Assembly: GCA_030264375.1 (NCBI GenBank)
Contig: JASCQW010000139.1
Location: forward strand, 22,369,971 to 22,433,970
Direction of reading: 5' to 3'
DNA: 64,000 bases
Origin: Carcharhinus longimanus
Taxonomy: Eukaryota
Shown here: in pieces, positions 11,003-12,565 of the stretch
How the letters are laid out: each line of letters opens with the position of its first letter
How positions within the stretch are numbered: the first letter of the stretch is position 1
Made by a program: the position numbers and the translations under genes
The notes under the pieces: model-generated
The model's database searches: none
Seen by the model: only the letters and a program-made list of their open reading frames with translations
Told to the model about the DNA's origin: nothing

Positions 11003-11290
11003 AATTTATTTATCAGTGTCACAAGTAGGCTTACATTAACACTGCAATGAAATCACTGTGAAAATCCTCTAGTTGCCACACTTCAGCACCTGTTCGGATA
11101 CACCGAGGGAGAATTTCACATGGCCAGTACACCCAACCAGCACATCTTTCGGCCTGTGAGAGGAAACCAGAGCACCTGGAGGAAACCCACATAGACACGG
11201 GAAAACATGCAGACTGGGCACAGACAGTGACCCAAGCCAGGAATCGAACCCTGGTCCCTGGTATTGTGAGGCAGCAGTGCTAACCATTGT
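11003..11290 (-). mobile_element. HE1-like SINE, tail B
   Basis: Full head, core and tail B in reverse orientation. Confidence 0.8.
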
Positions 11291-11536
11291 TACTTCATTG
11301 CACTATTAATATAAGCTGACTTGTGACAGCAATAAATAAACTTTAAGCTATAATTCTGATAAAGATTCTCCAGCTTATAGGAAGTTAAGAAATGGCACTA
11401 AAAAGAAACACATTTTAAATGCTGCAAGATTTGTTTTAAAAGGTTTTTGGCACACTGGGCGGGCGCTGGCCAATGGTGAAAATATTTAAGCCTTAATTCA
11501 ATGATCCTTTCGTTTTTTGATTCACAGGCTGCAAGT

Positions 11537-11564
11537 TTCAGCACCACGGTATCTGGACAGCGCC
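11537..11564 (+). promoter_or_regulatory. Non-canonical RE1/NRSE (REST) site in the CPLX3 intron
   Basis: TTCAGCACC-acggtatct-GGACAGCGCC: perfect half-sites, 9-bp spacer. Confidence 0.75.
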
Positions 11565-12020
11565 CGACTGAATGACCACAGCAAGGCAATTTTCCTATGA
11601 GTGTAAAGCTTACTTACTGTCACAAGTCGACTTACATTAATGCTGCCTTAAAGTTACTGCGAAAAATCCCACTCCTTAAACTGTGATGCAAATCGTTTCC
11701 ATAGGAAAATGAACTTGACAGAGAATCCCAATACTTTTTTAAATCCTGGTATCCATTCTTAGATAACTCGTTGACTATATTATTAGGATGGTATCGTTGG
11801 TTTTTGAAACGTGTATAACATTTGAGGAGGTTGTTCTTGGCGTCTCGATTAGTACACACTAGAACCGAGGTGAATGAAAAGTAAATTCGCCTTTTAATTC
11901 TTACCATTTATCAAAGCAGTTTCAATTCTGTGTGATTGTACTTGTGGGATTTTCAGTTTGGGAGCATTCAGCTGTCTTGGGTTTTCAGAAATTCAACAAG
12001 ATTTAAAAAAAGACACTTAC

Positions 12021-12181
12021 TTTTCTTCCACTAGCTGCCGTTGGTATTCCTCAAATTCTTCTCTCGTCATCCCCTGCGCTGCTGCTTCCGATTTCTCCCC
12101 CTCGCCCTTGTCATCGCCCCCGCGACCACCCGTCAGGTTCTTCAGCTGCCCCCCTACCATGGATTTAACCATGAAAGCCAT
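12021..12181 (-). CDS. CPLX3: Complexin-3, first coding exon (partial CDS, ends at a phase-2 intron)
   Basis: Translates [53 protein letters not shown](K), nearly identical to the vertebrate CPLX3 N-terminus as recalled. Strong Kozak context (GGCAGCATGG). Ends GAA GAA AA|GTAAGT, a canonical splice donor. Confidence 0.95.
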
Positions 12182-12445
12182 GCTGCCGGGTTGGAGGAGT
12201 TCGCCGCCGCTTGCAGGAGGAGGGGAAGAGGAGGGCTTGGGGGGGGAGTGGGGAGGGCTGTAGGTGATCGGACACAGCTCCCCTGCTCCGCTTGTGGGAT
12301 CGGAGGAACTTTCAGCACCACGCTCTGTGGACAGCGCCCGGCTGAATGGACAGGTTGCAGATTGGTGGACAACGCAATATTTCCTTCTCCTCCCCCTTTC
12401 CAACCGCAGCCACTCACAGTCCTGATAATAAAACCGGATTAAGTT
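12182..12445 (-). promoter_or_regulatory. CPLX3 5'UTR/proximal promoter (GC/CpG-rich, CCAAT box, CRX/OTX-type TAATCC site)
   Basis: CpG-retaining GC-rich segment directly upstream of the ATG. ATTGG (CCAAT on minus) at 12361-12365 and GGATTA (TAATCC on minus) at 12436-12441. The TSS cannot be determined. Confidence 0.5.
12311..12338 (+). promoter_or_regulatory. Non-canonical RE1/NRSE (REST) site upstream of the CPLX3 ATG
   Basis: TTCAGCACC-acgctctgt-GGACAGCGCC: both consensus half-sites are perfect, with a 9-bp spacer instead of 2 bp. Confidence 0.75.
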
Positions 12446-12565
12446 TGCTGTTTCGGACACTTACACATGTCTACAGGCAAGATTGAGCTGTGGATCTGAT
12501 CCCAATGAGAATGAAACAACCAGATATACAGCCTTATCCAGGCGATCCAATCTGTTATGAGTCGA

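What the first reader, a model, noticed from the sequence alone, without database searches (positions are those of the whole stretch)
11537..12348. Twin non-canonical REST/RE1 sites with 9-bp spacers bracket CPLX3 exon 1
Seen: TTCAGCACC-N9-GGACAGCGCC occurs twice in the same orientation (11537-11564 intronic, 12311-12338 upstream of the ATG). Both spacers begin with acg and both sites are followed by CG(A/G)CTGAATG, so the shared pattern extends beyond the known motif. Known: REST binds canonical RE1 (2-bp spacer) and also variants with longer spacers, and represses neuronal and synaptic genes. Inference: an old or locally duplicated dual silencer restricts complexin-3 to neurons, possibly with a constrained 3' extension bound by a co-factor.
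Basis: partly seen in the sequence, partly recalled or inferred. Interest (0 to 1): 0.7.

Follow-up and report, generated by a model that had tools for sequence, protein, structure and literature searches.

The report
Duplicated REST silencer at shark complexin-3
Two near-identical wide-spaced motifs of the kind bound by the neuronal-gene repressor REST flank the first coding exon of a shark complexin-3 gene; they are likely an old local duplicate that likely keeps the gene off outside nerve cells, and REST is already known to bind the human and mouse gene, so this is mostly known biology.

Summary
Two perfect half-site pairs with 9-bp spacers lie at 11537-11564 (intron) and 12311-12338 (130 bp before the ATG), antisense to the first coding exon of complexin-3. 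They are 2 of only 4 such exact sites in 2.68 Gb. They belong to a known class: 8- and 9-bp spacers repress in human reporter assays, and shark REST has the same DNA-contact residues as tetrapod REST. CPLX3 is already a REST target, with a conserved human/mouse peak and up-regulation on REST loss. The 'extended motif' is weaker than claimed. The 'ac' spacer start is a genome-wide preference. CGRCTGAATG is shared only by this pair and is best read as carry-over from a local duplication; other wide-spacer clusters in this genome also share spacer length and flanks. Neither site lies in a transposon. The scan found similar arrays before in other genomes (NMBR, NEFM, SRRM3, MAPK8IP2). One lead: wide-spaced perfect pairs are about as numerous as canonical ones in this genome (excess about 110 vs 126), against roughly 1:4 or less in human data, but that comparison is not like-for-like.

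The parts
12021..12181 (-). First coding exon of complexin-3 (ATG at 12181-12179; donor GT follows at 12020)
   Evidence: Pfam Synaphin; best hits named complexin-3; tblastn of P0121 residues 1-54, 94%; sequence view
12311..12338 (+). Site 2: non-canonical RE1, both halves exact, 9-bp spacer, 130 bp upstream of the ATG, antisense to the gene; likely counterpart of the mammalian CPLX3 promoter site
   Evidence: no differences at 12310-12348 in organisms E and G; human peak and half-site
11537..11564 (+). Site 1: non-canonical RE1, both halves exact, 9-bp spacer, 456 bp into the intron after the first coding exon
   Evidence: covered at single-copy depth by contigs of 4 runs, no listed difference, table cut
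12339..12348 (+). 3' flank of site 2, 9 of 10 bases shared with site 1
11565..11574 (+). 3' flank of site 1, 9 of 10 bases shared with site 2
11582..11596 (+). Second weak similarity block behind site 1 (partner 12370-12385); possible relic of the duplicated segment
   Evidence: 14 of 16 columns, 28 of 3000 shuffles reach the score; substitution at 11590 in X7
12370..12385 (+). Partner of the second similarity block, behind site 2
   Evidence: substitutions at 12377 and 12379 in relatives
12245..12480 (.). Conserved 5' block (promoter or 5' UTR) that contains site 2
   Evidence: 6 and 9 other letters in 236 in organisms E and G, against 76 over 11430-12520 in G
11614..11665 (+). End fragment of a high-copy repeat, 40 bp behind site 1; not part of the element
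   Evidence: depth in the thousands

Best explanation
The two motifs are wide-spaced RE1 half-site pairs that likely each bind one REST molecule and likely repress complexin-3 in non-neuronal and progenitor cells, and the intronic copy likely arose by a local duplication of the promoter-side site. By the model of Tang et al., zinc fingers 7-8 would read the left half, fingers 3-5 the right half, and finger 6 would bridge the 9-bp gap. The shared spacer bases and the CGRCTGAATG flank are likely carried over from the duplication, partly held by known motif preferences. Two copies would raise occupancy when REST is scarce. Shown here: sequence, rarity, gene identity, REST contact residues, single-copy context, presence in related genomes. 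Taken from papers: function of 9-bp spacers, REST binding and derepression at mammalian CPLX3. Inferred: binding and repression in shark, the duplication and its direction.
For: 2 of 4 exact genome-wide matches are here. Spacers of 7-11 are enriched genome-wide: 224 vs 114 for spacers 14-18. Only 8- and 9-bp spacers repressed in MPRA, and scrambling the gap weakened repression (PMC9903721). Shark REST fingers 3-8 have the same -1/2/3/6 residues as echidna, bird and frog. Human CPLX3 has an ESC peak conserved with mouse and is listed as up-regulated on REST loss in T47D and mouse ESC (PMC4499139 supplements). A peak found in 23 of 23 ENCODE sets, with a right half-site on the minus strand, lies at the matching hg38 place (PMC11025195; coordinate conversion and human gene strand recalled). 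The 9-of-10 flank match is the best of 561 pairs among 34 wide sites; a second weak block follows and drifts in relatives. Other clusters in this genome share spacer length and flanks, as proposed for human tandem RE1s (PMC1557810).
Against: No binding or expression data for any shark. The copies are 774 bp apart, while units within the other clusters lie about 30-150 bp apart, and 5' flanks show no similarity beyond 4 bases (1537 of 3000 shuffles). The second block was found after looking; 54 of 1122 ordered pairs of wide-site flanks score as high, the top ones mostly from tandem arrays. The flank is unchanged in the relatives that could be read fully, which also fits constraint. The human table lists only one half-site in the peak.
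Confidence: 0.65

Rival explanations
1. Both sites are REST sites and the 3' extension is a constrained third module, read by a co-factor or by REST fingers 1-2, so the likeness reflects selection and not only descent.
For: A third exact 9-bp site (C146, about 13 kb upstream of an orexin-receptor-like exon, name recalled) is followed by GGCTGA, also in organisms E and G. 3 of 5 genome-wide hits of right half plus extension have a left half 9 bp upstream. No difference in 12339-12348 in E and G. MPRA found unexplained sequence constraint in the gap.
Against: Only 2 independent loci; the 6-base pattern was chosen after seeing the third site; it matches 6 of 10 bases only. 31 of 34 wide sites lack it. 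The surrounding block differs at only about 3-4% of positions, so invariance has little power. Downstream mutations did not alter REST binding at a human right-half site.
Confidence: 0.12
2. Only the promoter-side site matters; the intronic copy is a recent or neutral duplicate that has not yet decayed.
For: Mammalian data show one peak and one listed half-site at the 5' end; the second mouse peak lies about 3.7 kb away.
Against: All 5 differences between the copies fall outside the 19 half-site bases (0 of 19 vs 5 of 23), as expected if both sets of half-sites are kept by selection. No difference was listed in site 1 in four runs (table cut).
Confidence: 0.18
3. The sites arose independently, or were delivered by a repeat, and the flank match is chance.
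For: A repeat end lies 40 bp behind site 1, and a nearby repeat copy holds a lone left half at 11082-11090.
Against: Depth over both elements is near single-copy while the repeat end is in the thousands; little similarity to 834 kb of other held sequence outside RE1 motifs; the flank match is unique among 561 pairs.
Confidence: 0.05

Closest known systems
Non-canonical (wide-spacer) RE1/NRSE, e.g. PCDH HS5-1 with an 8-bp gap (PMC8096226, passages; PMC9903721, abstract and section 11; PMC2573930, passages; PMC2926608, passages)
   Same: [quoted passage not shown]
   Different: Both halves are exact consensus and the site occurs twice; no binding data in shark.
Mammalian CPLX3 promoter REST site (PMC4499139 supplement rows; PMC11025195 supplement row)
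   Same: Same gene, 5' end, and (human gene strand recalled) same antisense orientation; gene up-regulated on REST loss.
   Different: Human site is scored as right half only, with a CTCC tail; no second motif listed; human flank could not be read here.
Tandem head-to-tail RE1 groups: SNAP25, L1CAM, CELSR3 (PMC1557810, passages; PMC8096226, passages)
   Same: Head-to-tail copies with similar flanks, attributed to duplication and proposed to recruit REST at low concentration.
   Different: 774 bp apart and separated by a coding exon, against under 100 bp in the defined tandem groups.

Membership tests
Non-canonical RE1/NRSE | Left and right half-sites matching the consensus, same strand, left before right | tested here: met
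   exact in both copies
Non-canonical RE1/NRSE | Spacer in the functional range (7-11 bound; 8-9 repressive) | tested here: met
   9 bp; ranges; the range is enriched in this genome
Non-canonical RE1/NRSE | A REST protein with the same specificity in the organism | tested here: met
   fingers 3-8 contact residues identical to tetrapods; finger 2 is interrupted by an assembly gap
Non-canonical RE1/NRSE | REST occupancy at the site | not testable with these tools
   only the mammalian orthologous promoter has ChIP data
Non-canonical RE1/NRSE | Repression of the linked gene | not testable with these tools
   mammalian CPLX3 is listed as up-regulated on REST depletion; no shark data
Non-canonical RE1/NRSE | Conservation above flanking sequence | tested here: inconclusive
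   site 2 unchanged in E and G but the flank differs little; site 1 table cut
Tandem RE1 group (Johnson 2006) | Head-to-tail orientation with similar flanks | tested here: met
Tandem RE1 group (Johnson 2006) | Copies within 100 bp | tested here: not met
   774 bp; so not filed as a tandem group in that strict sense
Transposon-borne RE1 | Motif lies inside a repeated element | tested here: not met
   4 exact copies genome-wide with unrelated surroundings

The most novel reading that the evidence does not exclude
In sharks the wide-spaced RE1 is not a minor variant but a co-dominant, probably ancestral binding mode of REST: perfect wide pairs are about as numerous as canonical ones, sit at the starts of core neuronal genes (CPLX3, CKMT1-like, CELSR-like, GPR151-like, MINAR-like) and multiply by local duplication, while the canonical excess of mammals came later. 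The CPLX3 pair would be an intact example of a site that has decayed to a half-site in human.
Probability: 0.3. Interest if true: 0.6.

Novelty: new member of a known kind. Interest (0 to 1): 0.3.

Why it matters
If the best reading holds, REST control of complexin-3 predates the shark/bony-vertebrate split and gives a clean natural pair for testing how two distant RE1s cooperate across an exon. That extends known biology. The larger stake is the side result: near parity of wide and canonical sites, with unchanged REST fingers, would bear on why REST has two binding modes. It can be settled by one identical pattern count across vertebrate genomes.

Tried and rejected
1) 'Wide sites outnumber canonical ones 2:1' (43 vs 22): this depends on requiring the 3' CC tail; without it the excess counts are about 110 vs 126. 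2) 'Sharks prefer 9 bp where humans prefer 8': holds for tail-bearing sites, but in the first 100 of 224 tail-free rows spacers 8, 9 and 10 are level (24, 24, 23; hand count). 3) RE1s at paralogous complexins: none in 3-kb stretches around the first coding exons of the two CPLX4-like genes or around one exon each of the CPLX1/2-like genes; promoters further away were not read. 4) REST by synteny with POLR2B: not in the 200 kb upstream; found by Pfam instead. 5) PDB holds no REST finger match among the 60 shown. 6) Rfam: no match in 6 loci. 7) No RNA holder listed; runs X20 and X13 gave no or partial cover. 8) The Xenopus screen has no cplx3 row but covers canonical sites only. 9) MPRA supplements: no hit for gene name or coordinates, file 13 unsearched. 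10) Three papers not held. 11) No DIRAS-like gene within 60 kb of the C43 element.

Full report
Observation. They form a 42-nt direct repeat, 88% identical, 774 bp apart. The gene lies on the minus strand, ATG at 12181 and donor at 12020, and is complexin-3 by Pfam and by its best hits. The genome is shark-like by these hits. The exact 9-bp pattern with CGCC tail occurs 4 times in 2.68 Gb: twice here, once upstream of a creatine-kinase-like first exon (name recalled, no Pfam match) and once on C146.

Class. Wide-spaced RE1s are known. In mouse ESC about 5% of REST sites had altered spacing, mostly 0-1 or 7-11 (PMC2573930, passages). Gaps are 2 or 7-9 bp, with finger 6 flipped out as a bridge (PMC8096226, abstract and passages). 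Only 8- and 9-bp spacers repressed in MPRA, more weakly than canonical, and scrambling the gap reduced repression (PMC9903721, abstract and section 11). Fugu REST binds such sites (PMC2926608, passages). In this genome spacers 7-11 give 224 exact pairs against 114 for spacers 14-18. REST is present on C43, and fingers 3-8 carry the same contact residues as echidna, bird and frog.

Target. CPLX3 is already a REST target in mammals: a human ESC peak at chr15:75118855-75119114 marked conserved, a conserved mouse peak and a second non-conserved one, and entries among genes up-regulated on REST depletion in T47D and mouse ESC (PMC4499139, passages and supplement rows, file 1 not searched). A table of 23 ENCODE sets has a peak at 15:74826463-74827152 in 23 of 23 sets with a right half-site on the minus strand, classed right-only (PMC11025195, abstract, Results, supplement rows). 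Linking that row to CPLX3 uses a recalled hg19-to-hg38 offset; the human gene strand is also recalled. On that basis site 2 is the likely counterpart; no second human motif is listed.

The 'extension'. Among 34 wide sites with a CTCC or CGCC tail, the spacer opens with A in 23 and C in 16 and ends with T in 22; the first flank base is C in 21. So 'acg' and part of the flank are general preferences. The 9-of-10 flank match is still the best of 561 pairs, so it needs an explanation. Right half plus the 6-base core has 5 hits genome-wide, control 1: the two here, the C146 site, and two with no left half. The C146 site is the one result in favour of a shared module, and it persists in organisms E and G, but the pattern was chosen after seeing it. 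In favour of descent: a second block 3' of both sites (14 of 16 columns, 28 of 3000 shuffles) that has changed in relatives, and other clusters whose units share spacer length and flanks: 6 units at a GPR151-like gene (five with 9 bp), 4 with 7 bp on C132, 4 at a MINAR-like gene, 5 plus 4 with 8 bp on C187, and 2 pairs with 9 bp. Human tandem RE1s were explained the same way (PMC1557810, passages). Against descent: the long distance and the lack of 5' similarity.

Conservation and repeats. Contigs of four runs cover both sites at near single-copy depth, whereas the repeat end at 11614-11665 reaches thousands; a search of 834 kb of held sequence agrees. Site 2 with its flank has no difference in E and G, but the whole 236-bp block differs at only 6 and 9 letters, so this has little power. 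For site 1 no difference is listed, but 67 rows were not shown. All 5 differences between the copies avoid the 19 half-site bases. Distant vertebrates could not be read.

Mechanism. Most likely each site binds one REST molecule and the pair represses the gene outside neurons, the second copy raising occupancy at low REST levels. Binding, repression, the duplication and its direction are inferred.

Side result. Canonical exact pairs number 149. After subtracting 22.8 per spacer, the excess is about 126 canonical and 110 wide. With a degenerate pattern that includes the tail, 27 canonical and 46 wide among the 100 of 106 rows listed (hand count). Human figures lean the other way: 58.4% vs 3.4% of ESC peaks; 350 canonical vs 125 altered-gap rows, of which 21 of the first 30 have gaps of 7-11 (hand count). 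Methods differ, the assembly has many gaps, and the tool calls its counts lower bounds, so this is a lead. My first version of it was too strong (see Tried and rejected).

Print status. Searches found no paper on this shark locus or on spacer ratios in cartilaginous fishes; three key papers were not held, so this is weak. PMC4430910 was seen as abstract, passages and supplement rows. Earlier scan notes report similar arrays in other genomes and none at this locus.

Verdict. Real, probably functional, a new member of a known kind at a known target; co-factor extension unlikely. Interest 0.3.

Noticed in passing
G000:C171:7471149-7471244 (L151) and G000:C130:38799227-38799394 (L153): The remaining complexin-3 exons are not in the window or the 60 kb beyond it. 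A last exon 89% identical to P0121 lies on C130 and an unassigned middle exon on C171. Probably mis-scaffolding; a 6.3-kb gap abuts the window start.
   Followed up: partly
G000:C150:29.50-29.51 Mb (L152, L156, L157): A third complexin-3/4-type gene besides CPLX3 and the CPLX4-like gene on C1.
   Followed up: partly
L115:8331-8732 (G000:C1:7.380 Mb): Array of at least six wide-spaced RE1 units directly before the ATG of a 7TM receptor that looks like GPR151 (name recalled).
   Followed up: partly
L117, L119-L120, L121-L122, L052, L039: Further head-to-tail arrays of wide RE1s, mostly with one spacer length per array; one precedes a MINAR-family gene.
   Followed up: partly
L048:1561-1589 (G000:C162:122.70 Mb): 11-bp-spacer RE1 inside the first long exon of a CELSR-like cadherin gene; human CELSR3 exon 1 also has 11-bp gaps.
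   Followed up: partly
L016 (C43:102.92 Mb) and L040 (C150:7.885 Mb): Two 10-bp-spacer RE1s on different scaffolds share about 94 bp at 74% identity; the C150 copy lies about 7.7 kb before a DIRAS-like ORF (name recalled), none found near the C43 copy. Possibly an old paralogous element.
   Followed up: partly
genome-wide: Only 22 of 149 exact canonical pairs carry the NNCC tail; tail-bearing sites are a larger share of the wide class after background correction, as if wide sites need the finger-3 contact more.
   Followed up: partly
window 12436-12441: A TAATCC homeodomain-type site (CRX/OTX, recalled) on the gene's strand within the conserved 5' block, unchanged in E and G; may relate to retinal expression.
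   Followed up: no
window 11005-11340: Small repeat with terminal inverted repeats that holds a lone left half-site at 11082-11090.
   Followed up: no
L103:6738-7367 (G000:C1:156.327 Mb); G000:C43:94.81-94.83 Mb: A JUN-family gene lies about 50 kb upstream of the POLR2B-like gene, and REST is on another scaffold, unlike the recalled mammalian order.
   Followed up: no
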